Shown here: positions 3,048 through 57,311 of the stretch, piece by piece | Layout: the number at the start of each line of letters is the position of its first letter | Numbering within the stretch: the first letter of the stretch is position 1 | Assembly (NCBI GenBank): GCA_964408485.1 | Contig: CAYOZJ010000001.1 | Location: 28,366 to 92,365, forward strand | Reading direction: 5' to 3' | DNA: 64,000 nucleotides | Source: an uncultured Gammaproteobacteria bacterium | GTDB taxonomy: Bacteria > Patescibacteriota > Microgenomatia > Levybacterales > UBA12049 | The notes under the pieces: model-generated | Seen by the model: only the letters and a program-made list of their open reading frames with translations | The model's database searches: none | Told to the model about the DNA's origin: nothing | Position numbers and translations under genes: made by a program

Positions 3048-3072
3048 GTCATTCTGAACGAAGCGAAGAATC
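3048..3072. repeat. short hairpin repeat unit GTCATTCTGAACGAAGCGAAGAATC (family A)
   Basis: Member of the dispersed GTCATYC...GRATC family, whose copies are listed in the findings. Confidence 0.7.
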
Positions 3073-3080
3073 TAGAAATA

Positions 3081-3131
3081 GGTGAGCAAACCTCACCCCA
3101 ACCCTCTCCTAAAAGGCGAGGGAGATCAAGG
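3081..3131 (+). promoter_or_regulatory. conserved thrS leader: GGTGAG-loop-CTCACC hairpin plus CCCTCTCC-TAAAAGG-CGAGGGAG hairpin (family D)
   Basis: The same two-hairpin arrangement, with the same GTCAT-type element before it, precedes pheS at 6470-6524. A TAAAAGG/TAGAAGG loop sits between complementary CCTCTCC/GGAGAGG arms just 5' of the AAGGA RBS. Confidence 0.45.
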
Positions 3132-3139
3132 AAAAATTT

Positions 3140-6393: not shown

Positions 6394-6450
6394 GTCATCC
6401 CGCACTAGATGCGGGATCCAGAATTAGATTCCTGCTTTCGCAGGAATGAC
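6394..6450. repeat. composite hairpin repeat: GTCATCC-CGCACTAGATGCG-GGATC plus GATTCCTGC-TTTC-GCAGGAATGAC
   Basis: Two hairpin units in opposite orientation give overall terminal inverted repeats GTCAT...ATGAC. The same composite is at 16108-16167 and, in-frame, inside recG and the HhH-GPD gene. Confidence 0.7.
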
Positions 6451-6469
6451 AATCTGTTCTATAATCTAT

Positions 6470-6524
6470 GTGAGGAAATAACCTCACCTCAATCCTCTCC
6501 TAGAAGGAGAGGAAGAATAAAAGG
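6470..6524 (+). promoter_or_regulatory. conserved pheS leader (GTGAGG-loop-CCTCAC hairpin plus CCTCTCC-TAGAAGG-AGAGG hairpin; family D)
   Basis: Paralogous to the thrS leader at 3081-3131, immediately 5' of the pheS RBS. Confidence 0.45.
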
Positions 6525-6536
6525 AGAAAATTATAT

Positions 6537-16189: not shown

Positions 16190-18283
16190 ATGAAACTCTC
16201 AACCCCGATTACTAATGCAGGTAAACTGTATGCAAATTACGCAGGCCGCTTGGAAAAACTCGACATTTTTACCTTAAAGGATTTTTTGTATCACTTGCCA
16301 GCTCGCTATGACGACTTCTCTCATATTGTTGCAATTAAAGATTTGGTCGCTGGCGAGTTAGTAACAATACAGGGACAAATTACCGAAATAACAAATAGCT
16401 ATACACGGTCTCGTAAGCAAATTCAAAAAGCAACAATCACCGACGACAGCGGGACACTGCCTGTTATTTGGTTTAATCAACCATACATCACCAAGACGTT
16501 AAAGTTTGGTGATAGCGTGTCTTTATCAGGGAGAGTGCAATCGGATGGATTTATTCCAAGTCTTGTTGCACCTGATTTTGAAATTATTCCAATGAGCGGT
16601 AGGACAATTCATACTGGCAGGCTTGTCCCAGTGTATCCTGAGACAGCAGGGGTCAGCTCCAAATGGCTAAGACGCCAAGTAGATAAGTTACTTGCAACCT
16701 CTTATGAACTTGTTGAATTTCTACCAGATGAAACGCAAAAACGCCTTGACCTCATGCCATTTAATAAGGCCATTGCTCAGATTCATTTTCCCGATGCTCT
16801 AGGAGAATCAGAAAAAGCCCGCGAGCGCTTAGGATTTGATGAAATCTTTTTACTTCAATTAGCAAATATAAAAAGAAAAAGGGAGTGGCAAGAAAAAGTA
16901 TTAGGAAATACATTTGCGATAGAAAAATTCCAAAAGGAAATTGATAAATTTTGGGAAAGCCTACCATTTGAGCCAACAAGCGCGCAAAGACGAGCAATTC
17001 ATGAGATTATGAGTGACCTTGCTAGCCCTCATGCAATGAATAGATTACTCCAGGGAGATGTAGGAAGTGGCAAAACAATCGTCGCTGGTATTGCAATGTA
17101 TATGGCATTTTTAAATGGTTTTCAATCTGTCCTTATGGCACCAACAGAAATTTTAGCCAATCAACATTACGAAACACTAAAAAAATTACTCGAGCCGCTT
17201 GGAGTAAAGGTTGACTTAGCAACTGGTTCTAAAAAAACAGAACGCGTCATTGCGAGCGAAGCGAAGCAATCTAATATTAATAAGGAGAAGATTGCCGCGT
17301 CGTCTTCGACTCCTCGCAATGACAATTCATTTGACATCCTTATTGGTACCCATGCCGTACTTTCTGACAAGATAAATTACGAAAAATTAGGACTTGTTGT
17401 TATTGATGAGCAACATAGGTTTGGAGTAGAGCAACGATCTATTATTCGCTCCAAAGGCACAAATCCCCATGTCCTTACCATGACAGCAACACCAATCCCT
17501 CGTACCGTTGCGCTTACACTTTATGGGGATCTTGAGCTTTCTATTCTTGATGAAATGCCCAAAGGAAGACAAGTTATTAAGACATGGCTTGTCCCTAATC
17601 AAAAGCGTGAAGCAGGATATGAGTGGATAGAAAAACAAATTAAGAAAGGCGATCAGGCATTTATTGTCTGTCCGTTTATTGAAGAGTCTGAATCCCTAAC
17701 TACTATTAAAGCAGCGAGTAGTGAATTTGAACAACTTCAAAAACATGTTTTCCCAAAGCTCAAACTCGGACTTTTGCACGGAAAAATGCGAGCAAAAGAG
17801 AAAGATGAAGTTTTGGAGAAGTTTCGAAAGGGCAGTATAGATATTCTCGTCGCGACACCAGTTGTTGAAGTTGGCATAGACATTCCAAATGCAACAATTA
17901 TCCTTATTGAGGCAGCAGAAAGATTTGGACTATCACAGCTTCATCAACTCAGAGGTAGAGTTGGGAGAGGAGATAAGCAGTCATATTGCCTTCTTTTTAC
18001 CGAGAGTAGCAGCCCTCAAGCAACCCAACGTCTTAAAAGTATGGAACACATTCATAATGGCGCGGAATTAGCAGAGTTAGACTTAAAAATGCGAGGCTCT
18101 GGGGACTTATACGGCACTCTTCAACACGGCAGAAAATGGCTTAAAATAGCCTCATTTTCCGATACCAGACTTTTGGAAATAGCCAAACAAGAGGCAATAC
18201 GAGTTTTTCCAGATCTAAATAAATATCCACTTCTTATTGAGAAAATTGAAGAAACGGCCACAAAACAGGTTAGTCCAGACTGA
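16190..18283 (+). CDS. recG: ATP-dependent DNA helicase RecG
   Basis: Wedge domain, Walker A GDVGSGKT, DEQH box, helicase C motifs. Carries a 78-nt in-frame repeat insertion at 17246-17323. TATAAT lies 8 nt upstream of the ATG. Confidence 0.95.
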   Translation: MKLSTPITNAGKLYANYAGRLEKLDIFTLKDFLYHLPARYDDFSHIVAIKDLVAGELVTIQGQITEITNSYTRSRKQIQKATITDDSGTLPVIWFNQPYITKTLKFGDSVSLSGRVQSDGFIPSLVAPDFEIIPMSGRTIHTGRLVPVYPETAGVSSKWLRRQVDKLLATSYELVEFLPDETQKRLDLMPFNKAIAQIHFPDALGESEKARERLGFDEIFLLQLANIKRKREWQEKVLGNTFAIEKFQKEIDKFWESLPFEPTSAQRRAIHEIMSDLASPHAMNRLLQGDVGSGKTIVAGIAMYMAFLNGFQSVLMAPTEILANQHYETLKKLLEPLGVKVDLATGSKKTERVIASEAKQSNINKEKIAASSSTPRNDNSFDILIGTHAVLSDKINYEKLGLVVIDEQHRFGVEQRSIIRSKGTNPHVLTMTATPIPRTVALTLYGDLELSILDEMPKGRQVIKTWLVPNQKREAGYEWIEKQIKKGDQAFIVCPFIEESESLTTIKAASSEFEQLQKHVFPKLKLGLLHGKMRAKEKDEVLEKFRKGSIDILVATPVVEVGIDIPNATIILIEAAERFGLSQLHQLRGRVGRGDKQSYCLLFTESSSPQATQRLKSMEHIHNGAELAELDLKMRGSGDLYGTLQHGRKWLKIASFSDTRLLEIAKQEAIRVFPDLNKYPLLIEKIEETATKQVSPD
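17246..17323. repeat. composite hairpin repeat inserted in-frame within recG (78 nt, 26 codons)
   Basis: GTCATTGCGAGCGAAGCGAAGCAATC, a spacer, then GATTGCCGCGTCGTCTTCGACTCCTCGCAATGAC. It encodes ...ASEAKQSNINKEKIAASSSTPRNDNS.... A near-identical second half is in the HhH-GPD gene at 38596-38703. Confidence 0.75.
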
Positions 18284-20170: not shown

Positions 20171-20968
20171 ATGAAGGTTACTATTCTCACTCTTTTTCCC
20201 GAAATGTTTGATGGACCATTTCGAGAATCTATTCTCAAACATGCCCAGCAAAAGGGATTATTGGAAATTACGTTAGTAAATATCCGAGATTTTGGAGAAG
20301 GACGACATAAAATCGTTGACGACAAACCCTATGGGGGTGGAGTTGGAATGGTAATGAAAGTTGATATTTTAGATAAAGCGATTCAAGCAGTAAAGGATAA
20401 CTCATTAGATACAACCCAACAAAAGGTAATTCTTCTCGATGCCAGAGGAAAAACATTTGTTCAGGAAAAAGCAAAAGAATTTTCAGGACTAAAACATCTT
20501 ATTATTCTTTGTGGACACTATGAGGGTGTGGACGAAAGAATAAGAGATCTTGTCGATGAAACAATTTCCCTTGGGGACTTTATTCTGACAGGGGGAGAAA
20601 TTCCTGCAATGATTATTGTAGATAGCGTTACTAGACTTATCCCTAGTGTGTTAAAAGACGATGCAACCCTTAAGGAATCGTTCAGCATAATCCATAGCAC
20701 TGCATCCCAACCTCACCCTGACCCGGCCAGGCTTGTCAAGCAAGCAGCCTCTCTCACTTCGTTCAGTCCGGCCCTAAAAGGAGAGGGAAATCAAGGAGAT
20801 GTTTCTTTATTAGAATTTCCTCAATATACTACACCAAGAGAATACAATGGAAAAGAAGTTCCTAATGTCTTACTGTCTGGCAATCATAAAGAAATAGAAA
20901 AATGGAGAAAAGAAAAGTCTCTTGAAATAACTCAACAACACAGACCTGATCTTCTTAAAAAGAATTAA
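20171..20968 (+). CDS. trmD: tRNA (guanine37-N1)-methyltransferase
   Basis: MKVTILTLFPEMF...YGGGVGMV SPOUT-fold motifs. Carries an in-frame insertion of about 120 nt (20690-20808) and a C-terminal extension. TACAAT lies 7 nt upstream of the ATG. Confidence 0.95.
   Translation: MKVTILTLFPEMFDGPFRESILKHAQQKGLLEITLVNIRDFGEGRHKIVDDKPYGGGVGMVMKVDILDKAIQAVKDNSLDTTQQKVILLDARGKTFVQEKAKEFSGLKHLIILCGHYEGVDERIRDLVDETISLGDFILTGGEIPAMIIVDSVTRLIPSVLKDDATLKESFSIIHSTASQPHPDPARLVKQAASLTSFSPALKGEGNQGDVSLLEFPQYTTPREYNGKEVPNVLLSGNHKEIEKWRKEKSLEITQQHRPDLLKKN
20690..20808. repeat. repeat-derived in-frame insertion in trmD (about 40 codons)
   Basis: Contains AACCTCACCC ... CCCTAAAAGGAGAGGGAAATCAAGG (family D) interrupted by CCGGCCAGG...CTCTCTCACTTCGTTCAGTCCGG (reverse family-A core ctgaacgaag). 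Encodes IIHSTASQPHPDPARLVKQAASLTSFSPALKGEGNQGDVS between the conserved DSF and LLE.P.YT segments. Confidence 0.6.
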
Positions 20969-20988
20969 CCACAAAAATATTGGAGTTA

Positions 20989-21828
20989 TTACTGCGCGCT
21001 CCCACTTGCAGAACTTGTTGGTGCGACAGTTACGCTTGGTGTTGGCGAAAGACTAACTATTGGACTTGGCGACACAGTTACTGTTGGCCCCGATTTAATC
21101 GGGGTTGGTGTCACTGATGGAATAATAGTTGCCGAAGAACTTGAAATAGTAGCATTTTGCAAATCATTACCACTTGCAAGAGTAGTCAAAAGCGTCTGAT
21201 CCGCTTGCCCTAGGATAGGAAGGGGATTACCGTCTTGAAAGACAATTTTTGGAATTGCTGCATAATAAAAGACAACCGTTACTGTTATTGACTCATTAGC
21301 ATTTACCGCAATTGCAATAGAATCAGACAAGGGAAGCTGTTTTTTTAATTGTGCAGCAAAACGTTGAGCAGAAAGTAAGTCCCCCTTAAGCGTTACATTT
21401 AATTGTACCGGCAACTGTGCTGTGGCTTTTCCTTTTTGATCTAACCCTGTCAAATCTCCCAATGAAAATGAATAATCTCCAAGAAGTGACCCGGATACGG
21501 CAGCGGCATTTTGGAGTGAATTCACAATGCCCGCAAAATCCTTTTCTGCAGGGAGCGCAGAGGTCGCTGTTGTTAATAGTTGATTTAACTTAACATCGTC
21601 AAGAGAGGTGAGGAGAGACAAGTTTTGACGCATAACTGAGACCTTTTGCGTATCAACGGCCAATGCATCTTTCTGCGCAAAGAAAGATTCCATTTGGGCA
21701 AGTACGACAAACCAAAAAAGTAACACGCAGACAAAAATTGTTGCAACAGGTATTATGAATGCACGATACCGATAATACAAACTTTTAAAAACTAATTGAT
21801 CAATAGTTACTCGTTGATTTGTGTTCAT
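20989..21828 (-). CDS. pilO: type IV pilus assembly protein PilO-like
   Basis: Single N-terminal TM segment, coiled coil, periplasmic domain. Position after pilM-pilN. Pro/Thr/Ser-rich C-terminal tail. Confidence 0.6.
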   Translation of the reverse strand: MNTNQRVTIDQLVFKSLYYRYRAFIIPVATIFVCVLLFWFVVLAQMESFFAQKDALAVDTQKVSVMRQNLSLLTSLDDVKLNQLLTTATSALPAEKDFAGIVNSLQNAAAVSGSLLGDYSFSLGDLTGLDQKGKATAQLPVQLNVTLKGDLLSAQRFAAQLKKQLPLSDSIAIAVNANESITVTVVFYYAAIPKIVFQDGNPLPILGQADQTLLTTLASGNDLQNATISSSSATIIPSVTPTPIKSGPTVTVSPSPIVSLSPTPSVTVAPTSSASGSAQ

Positions 21829-28935: not shown

Positions 28936-28998
28936 AAAACAACCCTCACCCTTGTATTCCCTCTCCCAAAAGGAGAGGGGGCTTTGTCACGTTACCCA

Positions 28999-37768: not shown

Positions 37769-38425
37769 ATGCAAAGTTTTATTATTGCTTCCCGCAACAC
37801 AGAAAAAAGAAAAGACTATATAGAAAGTTTTTGCACCAGCAAATCTATTAGCCAATTTGACAAGCACTATATACAACCTGGAGAAAATTCCTTTGGTATT
37901 ACCGAAATCAGAAATGTTCAAAAAACAGCATTCCTTCGTCCACAAAAAGGAAGTGAGAAAGCAATTATTTTGGAGAATGCCCAAAAGCTTACTACAGAGG
38001 CCCAAAACGCATTACTCAAAATGCTGGAAGAACCTCCTACAAATACCTATATTTTCTTGTCTGCAACAACAGAGAATTTCTTTCTTCCAACTATCCTCTC
38101 ACGATGCAAGCTGATTATATTGCCAGAACAAGACACTACGATTTCTGATGAAGAAAAAGAGATACTACACAGTCAGATACAAATTATGACAACAGGTACT
38201 GTTGGCGATAAATTATATCTTGCTGAAAAGGTAGCAGGGGAGAAGGAGAAAATAGGGGAGTGGTTACGAGAAATCGTACTCCTTCTTCGAGACAACATGC
38301 TCGAAGATCCAAAGAATGCTACATATCCTAATTTTATTGTACAAATGCAGGAAGCGAGTAAGTTTTTCCAAACAACAAATGTCGCCCCACGAGTATTACT
38401 TGAGCATACATTTCTTTCTCTATGA
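37769..38425 (+). CDS. holB: DNA polymerase III delta' subunit-like (short)
   Basis: AQNALLKMLEEPP and TILSRC motifs of clamp-loader delta'. Reduced length of 218 aa. Confidence 0.7.
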   Translation: MQSFIIASRNTEKRKDYIESFCTSKSISQFDKHYIQPGENSFGITEIRNVQKTAFLRPQKGSEKAIILENAQKLTTEAQNALLKMLEEPPTNTYIFLSATTENFFLPTILSRCKLIILPEQDTTISDEEKEILHSQIQIMTTGTVGDKLYLAEKVAGEKEKIGEWLREIVLLLRDNMLEDPKNATYPNFIVQMQEASKFFQTTNVAPRVLLEHTFLSL

Positions 38426-39099
38426 AATTTAATGATCCAATACTGCAGGAGTTAGTCAAAAAATATCCTGCGCCAAAATTTGAAGACCGGACAGGAAAAC
38501 TTTATGAAGAATTGGTTGAATCTATTATTTCCCAACAACTATCTGTCAAAGCATCAGATACTATATATAAGCGGTTTAAGGACTTATTTAAACCTGTCAT
38601 TGCGAACAGTGCGCGACCCCTCGGCGAAGATAGTCCCGAGTCGGGAAAGCAATCTAATACAAATAACGAGATTGCCGCGTCGTCTTCGACTCCTCGCAAT
38701 GACGCCTTCCCATCGCCTCAACAAGTTCTTGCCATGTCGGACGAACTTCTTCGAACAGCAGGTATTTCTTTTCAAAAAATTTCCTATATAAAAAGTGTTG
38801 CCGATGCTTTTATTTCCGATTTAATTGATGTTGAAAAAATAAAGAAAATGACTAATGATGAAGTGATTGAGACACTTACCCAAATTCGGGGAGTAGGGAA
38901 GTGGACTGCAGAAATGACTCTTATTTTTACACTCAAAAAACCTGATGTATTTTCTTTGGGAGACTTAGGTCTTCGCAATGCAATTACCAAGCTGTATGGA
39001 ATAACAGATCAAAAGAAAATGCTTGAGTTATCTGAAACCTGGAAACCTTTTAGAAGTTATGCGTGTTGGTATTTGTGGAGAAGTCTGGAGAATAGTTAA
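38422..39099 (+). CDS. HhH-GPD superfamily DNA glycosylase (AlkA/3-methyladenine glycosylase II-like)
   Basis: Helix-hairpin-helix GVGKWTAEM followed by a catalytic Asp. Contains a 108-nt in-frame repeat insertion at 38596-38703. Confidence 0.7.
   Translation: MKFNDPILQELVKKYPAPKFEDRTGKLYEELVESIISQQLSVKASDTIYKRFKDLFKPVIANSARPLGEDSPESGKQSNTNNEIAASSSTPRNDAFPSPQQVLAMSDELLRTAGISFQKISYIKSVADAFISDLIDVEKIKKMTNDEVIETLTQIRGVGKWTAEMTLIFTLKKPDVFSLGDLGLRNAITKLYGITDQKKMLELSETWKPFRSYACWYLWRSLENS
38596..38703. repeat. composite hairpin repeat inserted in-frame within the HhH-GPD glycosylase gene (108 nt, 36 codons)
   Basis: GTCATTGCGAAC...GGGAAAGCAATC plus TAATACAAATAACGA plus GATTGCCGCGTCGTCTTCGACTCCTCGCAATGAC. 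The 33-nt second unit is identical to the recG copy. Encodes ...ARPLGEDSPESGKQSNTNNEIAASSSTPRNDA.... Confidence 0.75.
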
Positions 39100-56438: not shown

Positions 56439-57311
56439 TTATTTTTCTTCAAAAGATTTTAGCACTTCACTCAATTCATTCGGCAAAGGTGCCTCAAAGT
56501 CCATTTTCTTTCCATTTATTGGATGGGTAAAGGAAATATGCGCTGCGTGAAGAAAAACGCGAGGAAGTACCCTCCTGTCTTCTCTACTTACTTTCCTCCC
56601 GGCATATAGCTCGTCACCAAAAATTGGATGACCAATGTATTGCAAATGGACTCTAATTTGATGTGTTCTACCTGTTTTGGGGAAAAGCCTAACAAAAGAA
56701 AGGATTTCTTTTGTTTTAGGACTTTCTAAATACCTCTCGACTTCGTAATGCGTAACAGATTCCCTACCTCCAGCCACAACACCAAACCGCTTACGATTAA
56801 ATTCTAACCGTCCAACAGGTACATTTATTTCCCCTTTTGCTGGAAGAATTTTCCCATGGGCAAGAGCAATGTAATTTTTCTCAATTACTCTTTCTTTAAA
56901 TTGTTTTTGCAGCTCAATAAAACTATCCAGTGTTTTGGCAACAAGCATAACTCCTGATGTTTCTTTATCAAGGCGGTGAACAATACCTGCGCGGTTGGCA
57001 AAGGCGTCCTCGGGAGGTTCCCAATTGGGATTCCATTGTTCTGGTAAACGTTGTTCTTTAAGTAAACCCGCGCCGCCTGTCGACACTTCGTGCGCAGGCA
57101 AGCTCCTCACTTCGTTCGTCCGCTCCCATTCTCCTTCTTTTCTTTGCGTAATAAGACGGATAGGATTTTTAGGGATATGGAGGTAATCTTGCACCATCTC
57201 TTGCAAAGTAATGACATGTGCAGTTGTGTCTGAGTTATTTACAATTACTCCCGCAGGCTTATTAACAACGAGCAAATCAGTATCCTCATAGATCACATCA
57301 AGCCTACTCAT
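56439..57311 (-). CDS. RluA-family pseudouridine synthase
   Basis: VVNKPAGV and HRLDKETSG catalytic Asp motif. An in-frame insertion of about 45-50 aa lies between the conserved blocks (57000-57149). Confidence 0.85.
   Translation of the reverse strand: MSRLDVIYEDTDLLVVNKPAGVIVNNSDTTAHVITLQEMVQDYLHIPKNPIRLITQRKEGEWERTNEVRSLPAHEVSTGGAGLLKEQRLPEQWNPNWEPPEDAFANRAGIVHRLDKETSGVMLVAKTLDSFIELQKQFKERVIEKNYIALAHGKILPAKGEINVPVGRLEFNRKRFGVVAGGRESVTHYEVERYLESPKTKEILSFVRLFPKTGRTHQIRVHLQYIGHPIFGDELYAGRKVSREDRRVLPRVFLHAAHISFTHPINGKKMDFEAPLPNELSEVLKSFEEK
57000..57149. repeat. repeat-derived in-frame insertion in the RluA-family gene
   Basis: Plus-strand text contains CAAGCTCCTCACTTCGTTCGTCCGCTCCC, closely matching CAGCCTCTCTCACTTCGTTCAGTCCGGCCC in the trmD insertion. 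Encodes TQRKEGEWERTNEVRSLPAHEVSTGGAGLLKEQRLPEQWNPNWEPPEDAF, which is not found in family homologues. Confidence 0.5.

What the first reader, a model, noticed from the sequence alone, without database searches (positions are those of the whole stretch)
20690..20808. trmD carries a nested repeat-derived insertion
TrmD has about 40 extra residues between the conserved DSF and LLE.P.YT blocks. The DNA here is a family-D element (AACCTCACC...CCCTAAAAGGAGAGGGAAATCAAGG, also found intergenically before thrS and pheS). That element is itself interrupted by a GC-rich inverted repeat, CCGGCCAGG...CTCTCTCACTTCGTTCAGTCCGG, which carries the reverse family-A core (ctgaacgaag). The insertion is flanked by the direct repeat CGTTCAG, which may be a target-site duplication.
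Basis: partly seen in the sequence, partly recalled or inferred. Interest (0 to 1): 0.7.

Follow-up and report, generated by a model that had tools for sequence, protein, structure and literature searches.

The report
Nested hairpin-repeat insertion inside trmD

Summary
The observation largely holds. trmD (20171..20968, +) encodes a complete TrmD with a 41-residue linker between E169-S170-F171 and LLEFPQYT. About 110 of the 120 closest homologues have linkers of 3-10 residues, and the nearest have 3. The extra DNA is a copy of repeat family "D" (AACCTCACCC..CCCTCTCC-loop-GGAGAGGGAGATCAAGG), which has three intergenic copies in this window. Its left hairpin arm is interrupted by 45-48 nt of a second family ("N"). 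N has a conserved loop, GGAC(T)GAACGAAGTGAGGA, closed by a covarying 4-bp stem, and it is widespread in low-GC metagenome contigs, often in frame inside housekeeping genes. The proposed target-site duplication (CGTTCAG) is not supported: its second copy lies inside the insert, and an 8-mer repeat is expected by chance. D elements also sit at this trmD site, in the same orientation and frame, in two other lineages that do not group with this one. Seven further relatives carry unrelated inserts there. AlphaFold2 predicts both TrmD domains confidently and the insert as disordered. Most likely this is a tolerated, translated insertion of a selfish or structural repeat in a permissive loop. That makes it a new member of a known kind (Rickettsia palindromic elements, intragenic REPs), which I did not find described for CPR bacteria. 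No transposase was found.

The parts
20171..20968 (+). trmD coding sequence (265 aa), intact. It keeps all 44 invariant residues of the 76-sequence alignment.
20684..20806 (+). Codons 172-212: the 41-residue linker SIIHSTASQPHPDPARLVKQAASLTSFSPALKGEGNQGDVS between E169-S170-F171 and LLEFPQYT. The nearest relatives have 3 residues here, so about 114 nt are extra. GC is 52-57% against 38.5% for the window.
20687..20708 (+). ATAATCCATAGCACTGCATCCC, the 5' part of the extra DNA. Its origin is uncertain. It weakly resembles the sequence left of the pheS-upstream D copy (ATAATCTATG..). It could be the 5' part of the D element or older linker codons.
   Evidence: sequence reading; inference
20709..20726 (+). 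Left part of the family-D element (AACCTCACCCTGACCCGG). The left hairpin arm CCCTCTCC is missing or overwritten.
20727..20774 (-). Nested family-N element. On the - strand it reads GGGCC GGACTGAACGAAGTGAGAGA GGCT GCTTG CTTGA CAAGC CTGG. It adds a net 45 nt (15 codons). CCGGCC occurs at both borders (20723-28 and 20768-73).
20775..20796 (+). Right part of the family-D element (TAAAAGGAGAGGGAAATCAAGG)
20678..20685 (+). TCGTTCAG, copy 1 of the proposed target-site duplication, in the ESFS codons. Copy 2 is at 20759-20766, inside the conserved loop of N. Judged to be a chance match.
3081..3131 (+). Intergenic D copy: GGTGAG..CTCACC hairpin plus CCCTCTCC-TAAAA-GGCGAGGG hairpin plus GAGATCAAGG. It ends 8 nt before the thrS start codon. 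A family-A hairpin (3048-3072) lies just upstream.
6470..6515 (+). Intergenic D copy upstream of pheS. It folds well (z -5.2 for 6420-6520).
28942..28980 (+). Intergenic D copy between two - strand genes, just upstream of the prepilin-peptidase start codon (28935)
57066..57131 (-). Second N-family copy in the window, in frame in an RluA-family pseudouridine synthase gene (EWERTNEVRSLPAHEVSTGGAG)

Best explanation
About 114 nt of composite repeat DNA sit in frame in the codons for the flexible interdomain linker of TrmD, directly after the catalytic E-S-F motif. A family-D hairpin element arrived first. A 45-48-nt family-N hairpin element then landed in the left arm of the D hairpin, in the opposite orientation, and destroyed that hairpin. 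Both families are short, GC-rich, stem-loop repeats that are multi-copy in this genome and far beyond it. Most of their reading frames contain no stop codon (3 of 6 for D, 5 of 6 for N).

The insert is most likely transcribed and translated as a 38-residue, low-complexity, disordered loop. The enzyme tolerates it because the two folded domains and the E169-S170-F171 motif are untouched. It is therefore a survivor of repeat proliferation, not an added functional domain. Insertions persist only in open frames and in permissive loops, which would explain why the same linker carries different repeats in different CPR lineages.

Shown here: the repeat homology, the nesting, the empty site in the nearest relative, the recurrence at this site, the intact ORF and conserved residues, and the covarying stem of N.

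Inferred: the order of the two events, translation and tolerance, and the way the repeats spread. Spread is presumed to be trans-mobilisation or hairpin-dependent copying, as proposed for REP and RPE elements, but no enzyme was identified.
For: - TrmD identity and insert position.
- Linker lengths: about 110 of the 120 closest homologues have 3-10 residues, and the nearest (78-80% identical: P0002, P0004, P0006) have 3.
- Empty site: the syntenic relative L085 reads TTC AGC ACG AAT CTT TTG GAA.
- D copies: three intergenic copies in the window fold as hairpins, and the six-copy alignment shows a 45-nt block unique to the trmD copy.
- N family: 83 metagenome loci match its core.
  - 17 aligned members show 98.5% pairing in the 4-bp stem. 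There are 16 double-sided changes, and 0 of 500 shuffles reach the observed score.
  - The trmD copy fits the family, with stem GGCC/GGCT and second hairpin GCTTG/CAAGC.
  - L113 shares its second half, GGCTGCTTGCTTGACAAGCC.
- N lies in frame in YchF, RadA (two contigs, same site), a UvrC-like protein and trigger factor in other contigs.
- The window holds more in-frame repeat inserts, in RecG, an HhH-GPD glycosylase-like ORF and an RluA-family synthase.
- AlphaFold2: mean pLDDT 87.6, about 50 across the insert, and above 90 in nearly all 10-residue blocks outside the linker region.
- All 44 invariant alignment columns are kept.
- Open frames of D and N.
- The linker is disordered in free TrmD, and Asp169, Ser170 and Phe171 are functional residues (PMC5372744).
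Against: - There is no direct evidence of transcription, translation or enzyme activity.
- The trmD copy itself has lost hairpin potential, so its family membership rests on sequence alone.
- The borders of N within D are not clean. Five D bases (TCTCC) are replaced rather than simply split, so a plain cut-and-paste insertion does not fit exactly.
- No transposase was found among 20 otherwise unassigned ORFs of the window; the only recombinase is XerC/D-like.
- Only 64 kb of the genome was available.
- The insert lies only 1-2 residues after F171, which the TrmD review describes as functionally required. Tolerance is therefore plausible but not guaranteed.
Confidence: 0.78

Rival explanations
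1. The recurrence at this codon position reflects a sequence- or structure-directed insertion mechanism, meaning a true target site such as the GAATC of the GAA-TCN-TTY (E-S-F) codons. On this reading, the selective filter of a permissive loop is not the whole explanation.
For: - D elements sit at this trmD site in three lineages in the same orientation and the same reading frame (PHP(N/D)P..GEG(D/N)QG).
- Those three lineages never cluster in 60 bootstrap replicates.
- A (G/T)AATC lies 6-22 nt upstream of AACCTCACC in the thrS-upstream, pheS-upstream and all three trmD copies (sequence reading).
- RecG and RadA also show the same site hit repeatedly.
Against: - The distance from ESF to the D element differs between lineages (0, 7 and 8 codons).
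- Ten different inserts from several unrelated repeat families occupy the linker.
- With 3 of 6 D frames open, three hits sharing one frame has a chance probability of about 1 in 9.
- No target-site duplication is seen.
Confidence: 0.25
2. One ancestral D insertion in trmD was inherited by the three lineages and precisely lost in the many short-linker relatives, or was moved between lineages by recombination.
For: The site, orientation and frame are the same in all three. The right junction is similar in the window and in L084 (G-[D/Q]-V-S-LLE).
Against: - Each D-bearing TrmD has nearest relatives (80-83% identical) that lack D. The three are only 68-74% identical to each other.
- The smallest tree split containing any two of them holds 69-91 taxa in the observed tree and at least 12 in every bootstrap replicate.
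- Many exact deletions would therefore be needed.
- The left junctions differ.
Confidence: 0.1
3. The insert is an adaptive, functional extension of the TrmD linker, for example for tRNA contact or for a CPR-specific partner.
For: - The linker folds onto the tRNA during catalysis (PMC5372744).
- Other Microgenomates carry a conserved 30-residue insert at the same site, so length there can be functional.
- AlphaFold2 draws a weak helix at residues 185-195.
Against: - The insert is a singleton: its cluster has one member and no close relative shares it.
- Its DNA matches intergenic repeats.
- The predicted confidence across it is low.
- The peptide is low-complexity.
Confidence: 0.08
4. The segment is removed after transcription or translation (intron- or intein-like), or it is an assembly chimera.
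For: The N stems covary, which implies a single-stranded structure. N copies also lie in or beside tRNA-gene fragments.
Against: - There is no Rfam match, even at E<=1.
- It is far too short for an intein or a group I/II intron.
- Every in-gene copy examined is in frame and free of stop codons, which splicing would not require.
- The identical protein is on record from NCBI and from a Logan assembly, and similar inserts occur in unrelated samples.
Confidence: 0.04

Closest known systems
Rickettsia palindromic elements (RPE; Ogata et al. 2000 and 2002, as summarised in PMC10969869 and PMC3733652)
   Same: These are short palindromic repeats with open reading frames. They are inserted in frame in unrelated housekeeping genes, including RNA-modification and DNA-repair genes. 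They sit at positions compatible with the protein fold, in a small-genome, host-dependent bacterium, and no dedicated transposase is known.
   Different: No sequence relationship was tested or is expected. D (about 45-70 nt) and N (about 50 nt) are shorter than RPE-1 (about 150 bp). Here, two families are nested. The same site is also hit independently in several lineages, and both families extend far beyond one genus.
Intragenic REPs, GTAG- and CGTC-tagged (Di Nocera et al. 2013, PMC3733652)
   Same: These are 20-40-bp stem-loops, found singly, as dimers or in clusters, that encode 20-80 residues inside replication, repair and RNA-related genes. The CGTC class lacks a dedicated transposase. 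The window's RecG insert starts with CGTCATTGCG.. and ends with ..CGCAATGAC, which is a CGTC-type inverted dimer.
   Different: D and N carry neither a GTAG nor a CGTC tag. CPR bacteria are not among the phyla that paper's results open by listing for GTAG repeats (Proteobacteria, Cyanobacteria, Chloroflexi, PVC). I read only passages of the paper.
Bacterial MITEs that make in-frame fusions (for example Coxiella QMITE1, PMC5896051; review PMC10969869)
   Same: They are non-autonomous repeats that overlap ORFs and add peptide segments.
   Different: MITEs have terminal inverted repeats and target-site duplications and are 100-400 bp long. Neither feature was found for D or N.
REPINs and Neisseria dRS3 / Correia-type repeats (recalled from memory; a lead only)
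   Same: Inverted doublets of hairpins of the GTCAT..ATGAC kind occur in RecG, in the glycosylase-like ORF and in the P0121 trmD insert. The hairpin ATTCC(C/T)GCGAAAGC(G/A)GGAAT resembles dRS3.
   Different: This was not tested. It concerns the companion family A, not D or N.

Membership tests
TrmD, tRNA (guanine37-N1)-methyltransferase | Matches the family HMMs above the curated cut-off | tested here: met
   PF01746 scores 178.7 bits (cut-off 27.3). TIGR00088 scores 268 bits (cut-off 195) and NF000648 scores 281 bits (cut-off 220).
TrmD, tRNA (guanine37-N1)-methyltransferase | Catalytic linker motif Asp169-Ser170-Phe171 plus the conserved C-terminal-domain start LLE.P.YT | tested here: met
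   E169-S170-F171 is invariant in 76 relatives, with E replacing D in the whole clade. LLEFPQYT is present. The roles of these residues come from PMC5372744. Activity was not tested.
In-frame palindromic repeat insertion (RPE / intragenic-REP kind) | The inserted DNA belongs to a multi-copy repeat family that also occurs intergenically in the same genome | tested here: met
   D has 3 intergenic copies in 64 kb. N has a second copy in the RluA-family gene.
In-frame palindromic repeat insertion (RPE / intragenic-REP kind) | Orthologues in close relatives lack the segment, and the reading frame and flanking conserved residues are kept | tested here: met
In-frame palindromic repeat insertion (RPE / intragenic-REP kind) | Hairpin-forming potential of the element | tested here: inconclusive
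   Intergenic D copies form clear hairpins, and the stem of N covaries. The trmD copy folds no better than shuffled sequence (z +1.3) because N disrupts the D stem.
In-frame palindromic repeat insertion (RPE / intragenic-REP kind) | The insert lies in a surface or loop position compatible with the fold | tested here: met
   In the AlphaFold2 model the insert has pLDDT about 50, while nearly all 10-residue blocks outside the linker region are above 90. The linker is disordered in free TrmD crystal structures (PMC5372744). This is a prediction only.
Rickettsia RPE families proper | Sequence homology to RPE-1 to RPE-10 | not tested
Membership is not claimed.
REP / REPIN mobilised by RAYT | GTAG (or CGTC) terminal tetranucleotide on the hairpin | tested here: not met
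   Neither D nor N has such a tag (sequences). Only the separate GTCAT family does (CGTCAT in RecG).
REP / REPIN mobilised by RAYT | A RAYT or IS200/IS605 Y1 transposase gene flanked by the repeats | tested here: inconclusive
   None was found among 20 unassigned ORFs of the window; only a XerC/D-like recombinase was seen. The rest of the genome was not available.
MITE | Terminal inverted repeats and a target-site duplication flanking the element | tested here: not met
   The ends of D (AACCTCAC / GATCAAGG) are not inverted repeats. The proposed duplication TCGTTCAG does not flank the insert and is at chance level.
Self-splicing intron / intein | A ribozyme or intein core of adequate size | tested here: not met
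   No Rfam hit at E<=1 in 20500-21000. At 114 nt / 38 aa it is far below the size of known introns or inteins (established knowledge).

The most novel reading that the evidence does not exclude
CPR (Microgenomates-type) genomes may be colonised by a superfamily of short hairpin repeats. These have conserved loops (GARCGAAGYGAR, containing the stable GCGAAGC/ACGAAGT mini-hairpin) and freely covarying stems. Alongside them is a cross-phylum element, CCTCACCCYAACCCTCTCC-loop-GGAGAGGG.

On this reading the repeats insert into each other's hairpins and, repeatedly and independently, into the same codons of essential genes (trmD, recG, radA). That would point to a structure- or sequence-directed copying mechanism without a known transposase. 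It would also make these repeats a general source of new protein loops in these minimal genomes, possibly including the conserved 30-residue TrmD insert of Roizmanbacteria-type lineages.
Probability: 0.25. Interest if true: 0.75.

Novelty: new member of a known kind. Interest (0 to 1): 0.55.

Why it matters
TrmD is essential and is an antibiotic target. A 38-residue repeat-encoded loop lying one or two residues after its catalytic E/D-S-F motif shows how much that linker can tolerate.

This locus is also a clean, datable example of selfish or structural repeats being written into essential proteins of ultra-small CPR bacteria, because it has an empty site, a single-element state and a nested state. 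I found no paper describing this for CPR.

The same linker is hit by several families, and by family D three times. The window therefore provides a natural experiment for separating target preference from selective filtering. It also flags a source of annotation and alignment noise in CPR proteomes.

Tried and rejected
- **Target-site duplication (CGTTCAG).** Rejected. The second copy lies inside N's conserved loop, and an 8-mer repeat is expected by chance. The CCGGCC repeat at N's borders (20723-28 and 20768-73) is noted but ambiguous, because part of it belongs to N's own stem.
- **"GC-rich inverted repeat".** The fold of 20720-20775 is no better than shuffled sequence.
- **Rfam.** The whole window at gathering threshold gave only two tRNAs. 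The region 20500-21000 at E<=1 gave nothing.
- **Further D or N copies in related DNA.** About 1 Mb of related genome loci holds none, apart from the trmD of L082 and L084.
- **Peptide-profile search for more D-bearing TrmDs.** 13 candidates shared words with the query and none scored.
- **Second homologue search, seeded with P0007.** It added no new D-bearing TrmD.
- **Literature search by sequence strings.** It returned only primer and epitope-tag matches.
- **Literature search for CPR terms with MITE or RPE.** No relevant paper was found.
- **Transposase hunt.** Twenty unassigned ORFs gave none.
- **N as a tRNA intron.** Rejected for the cases read. L137 is an 18-nt 5' duplicate of the neighbouring tRNA-Thr followed by N. 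L089 is a duplicate of the 3' end of tRNA-Tyr with N in its T-loop. Neither is a complete interrupted gene.

Full report
**What is at the locus.** The ORF 20171..20968 (+) is a complete TrmD (Pfam PF01746, E 1.5e-52; NCBIfam equivalogs above cut-off). It lies in the conserved context rnc, rpsP, KH-protein, trmD, followed by pilM-type genes on the opposite strand. Solved TrmD structures align to residues 1-171 and 211-264 and have only 1-6 residues in between. The window protein therefore carries about 40 extra residues between E169-S170-F171 and LLEFPQYT. The whole clade has E where H. influenzae TrmD has the catalytic Asp169. The extra DNA is 52-57% GC in a 38.5% GC window.

**Relatives.**
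- About 110 of the 120 closest homologues have linkers of 3-10 residues. The nearest (78-80% identical once the insert is set aside; 67-68% by BLASTP: P0002, P0004, P0006) have 3.
- The syntenic relative L085 shows the empty site: GAG TCA TTC AGC ACG AAT CTT TTG GAA.
- No relative has the same 40-residue segment, even after a second search seeded with P0007.

**Family D.**
- The right half of the insert (CCCTAAAAGGAGAGGGAAATCAAGG) recurs at 3107-3131 (3 mismatches, 0 expected). AACCTCACC recurs as well.
- Full copies lie 8 nt upstream of thrS (3081-3131), upstream of pheS (6470-6515), and at 28942-28980.
- The consensus is AACCTCACCCyAACCCTCTCC-loop-GGmGAGGGAGATCAAGG.
- The intergenic copies fold as hairpins. 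The trmD copy does not (z +1.3).

**The nested piece.** Aligning six D copies isolates one 45-nt block that is present only in the window's trmD copy. The block replaces the left stem arm CCCTCTCC.
- Read on the - strand, this piece is GGGCC-GGACTGAACGAAGTGAGAGA-GGCT-GCTTG-CTTGA-CAAGC-CTGG.
- A metagenome scan for its core returned 83 loci.
- Many low-GC contigs carry the same architecture: a 4-bp stem, the conserved loop GGAC(T)GAACGAAGTGAGG(G)A, the complementary 4 bp, then a second hairpin GCCTG..CAGGC.
- In 17 aligned members the stem is 98.5% paired, in variants GAGC/GCTC, GAAC/GTTC, GGGC/GCCC, GGAC/GTCC, GATC/GATC and GGCC/GGCT. There are 16 double-sided changes, no shuffle out of 500 reaches the observed score, and shifted registers pair only 28-47%.
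- The window holds a second typical member, in frame in an RluA-family pseudouridine synthase (57066-57131).
- Locus L113 shares the trmD copy's second half, GGCTGCTTGCTTGACAAGCC.

The nested piece is therefore a member of a distinct family, which I call N. Family A (GTCATTCTGAACGAAGCGAAGAATC; D4) shares only the loop motif GAACGAAG(C/T)GA with it.

**Claims that fail.**
- TCGTTCAG occurs at 20678-85 and at 20759-66. The second copy is part of N's conserved loop and lies 30-40 nt before the end of the insert. One 8-mer repeat in 300 nt is what chance gives (shuffle mean 0.86; 47% of shuffles have at least 1).
- The piece is not a convincing inverted repeat.
- N's borders in D are not a clean split. 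TCTCC is replaced, and CCGGCC at both borders overlaps N's own stem.

**A recurrent site.** Ten of the 120 closest TrmDs have linkers of 17 or more residues.
- Two carry D in the same orientation and frame. L082 (P0007) has an intact D: CCT CAC CCT AAC CCT CTC CCT GCA AAG CAG GGC GAG GGA GAT CAG GGA. L084 (P0027) has a D with a perfect 16-nt palindrome, TCCGCCAGCTGGCGGA, in its loop.
- The three D-bearing proteins are 68-74% identical to each other, yet each has insert-free neighbours at 80-83% identity. They never cluster in 60 bootstrap replicates. This favours three independent gains.
- Their left junctions also differ: 8, 7 and 0 codons after ESF in the window, L082 and L084 respectively.
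- The window's NJ sister (P0031/P0121) instead carries an inverted pair of GTCAT-type hairpins. P0040 carries a 16-nt palindrome, TGCCTGCCGGCAGGCA.
- Other CPR TrmDs carry simple-sequence or other inserts at this site. Roizmanbacteria-type lineages have a conserved 30-residue insert there. The non-CPR TrmDs in the same sample have short linkers.

**A genome-wide habit.**
- RecG (17240-17323) carries CGTCATTGCGAGCGAAGCGAAGCAATC..GATTGCCGCG..CGCAATGAC in frame. The segment is absent from L085 RecG. L082 RecG has a different insert at the same position.
- An HhH-GPD glycosylase-like ORF (38596-38703) carries the same doublet, with another hairpin nested in its first loop.
- Elsewhere, N lies in frame in YchF, RadA (two contigs, same site), a UvrC-like protein and trigger factor.
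- D has 3 of 6 frames open and N has 5 of 6.

**How it most likely works.**
- AlphaFold2 (76-sequence alignment) gives mean pLDDT 87.6. The value is about 50 over residues 172-212 and above 90 in nearly all 10-residue blocks outside the linker region.
- All 44 invariant residues are kept.
- In crystal structures the linker is disordered until tRNA binds. Asp169, Ser170 and Phe171 act in catalysis and AdoMet sensing (PMC5372744).
- The best reading is a translated, tolerated, disordered loop encoded by repeat DNA. It survives because it is in an open frame and at a permissive position.
- The way the repeats spread is inferred only. No transposase was found among 20 unassigned ORFs; the only recombinase is XerC/D-like. 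Neither D nor N has terminal inverted repeats, a target-site duplication, or a GTAG/CGTC tag.

**Comparison with known systems.** The phenomenon matches Rickettsia palindromic elements and intragenic REPs: in-frame palindromic repeats in housekeeping genes, with CGTC-type REPs lacking a dedicated transposase (PMC3733652; PMC10969869). Membership of those named families is not claimed. Features not matched in the literature I read:
- the host group, CPR;
- the nesting of one family in another;
- the triple independent hit at one site;
- the breadth of both families. The 19-mer CCTCACCCYAACCCTCTCC alone occurs in more than 120 viral or prophage contigs with GC from 0.36 to 0.72. Most copies are followed by a variable loop and GGAGAGGG or a close variant.

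**Verdict.** The target-site duplication is wrong and the nested piece is reassigned to family N. This is a new member of a known kind, of moderate interest.

Noticed in passing
window 17240-17323 (RecG, 16190..18283 +): In-frame 28-residue insert ERVIASEAKQSNINKEKIAASSSTPRND. It is encoded by an inverted doublet of GTCAT-type hairpins (CGTCATTGCGAGCGAAGCGAAGCAATC ... GATTGCCGCGTCGTCTTCGACTCCTCGCAATGAC). It is absent from RecG of the nearest relative L085. L082 RecG has an unrelated insert at the same position.
   Followed up: partly
window 38596-38703 (HhH-GPD glycosylase-like ORF, 38422..39099 +): The same hairpin doublet is in frame here; its right arm is 100% identical to 17289-17323. The loop of the first hairpin carries a further nested GC-rich hairpin (..GACCCCTCGGCGAAGATAGTCCCGAGTCGGG..). 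This is a second case of nesting in the window.
   Followed up: partly
window 57066-57131 and about 56980-57235 (RluA-family pseudouridine synthase, 56439..57311 -): About 55 extra residues lie between the NKPAG and HRLD motifs, compared with RluD structures. Part of this segment is a typical N-family element (EWERTNEVRSLPAHEVSTGGAG).
   Followed up: partly
window 3081-3139, 6470-6536, 28936-28980: All three intergenic D copies end 7-21 nt from a start codon (thrS, pheS, prepilin peptidase). They place purine-rich Shine-Dalgarno-like runs (AAGGA, AAGGAG, GGTGAGGG) in front of it, in either orientation. This may be chance in short intergenic spacers, or the repeats may be donating ribosome-binding sites.
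   Followed up: no
Most copies are followed by a variable stem extension or loop and GGAGAGGG or a close variant. An element conserved this well across such different genomes is unexplained here.
   Followed up: partly
L137:1236-1340, L138, L089:6118-6210, L156:9050-9140, L105, L147: N-family elements sit in tRNA gene clusters next to or inside partial tRNA duplicates. One case is an 18-nt 5' copy of tRNA-Thr followed by N. Another is a copy of the T-arm and 3' end of tRNA-Tyr with N in the T-loop. ARAGORN calls no gene at these positions.
   Followed up: partly
L006, L012, L013, L024, L029, L032, L038, L042, L052, L068, L072, L076 (TrmD linker): Roizmanbacteria- and Microgenomates-type TrmDs share a conserved 30-residue insert at exactly the same linker position (for example SEYEVDYLIKILGENEILKKLKEKRIKKTK). 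In L016 this insert is itself interrupted by a repeat-like NRPARRSPASRDEVG.
   Followed up: no
L172:5550-6359 (P0040 TrmD) and L082:4854-6950 (RecG): Further small hairpin inserts lie at other positions of the same proteins. In TrmD the segment QPEADRPLD is encoded by CCAGAGGCTGATCGTCCTCTGG. In L082 RecG there is a segment KNLPAGRQA.
   Followed up: no
window 6428-6452: The hairpin GATTCCTGCTTTCGCAGGAATGAC is the same sequence, in reverse complement, as the first arm of the repeat inserted in frame in the trmD linker of the window's NJ sister lineage (P0121, peptide VIPAKAGIQ).
   Followed up: partly
TrmD residue 169 (window 20675-20677) and alignment A3: All 76 aligned Microgenomates-type TrmDs have Glu where H. 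influenzae and E. coli TrmD have the catalytic base Asp169.
   Followed up: no
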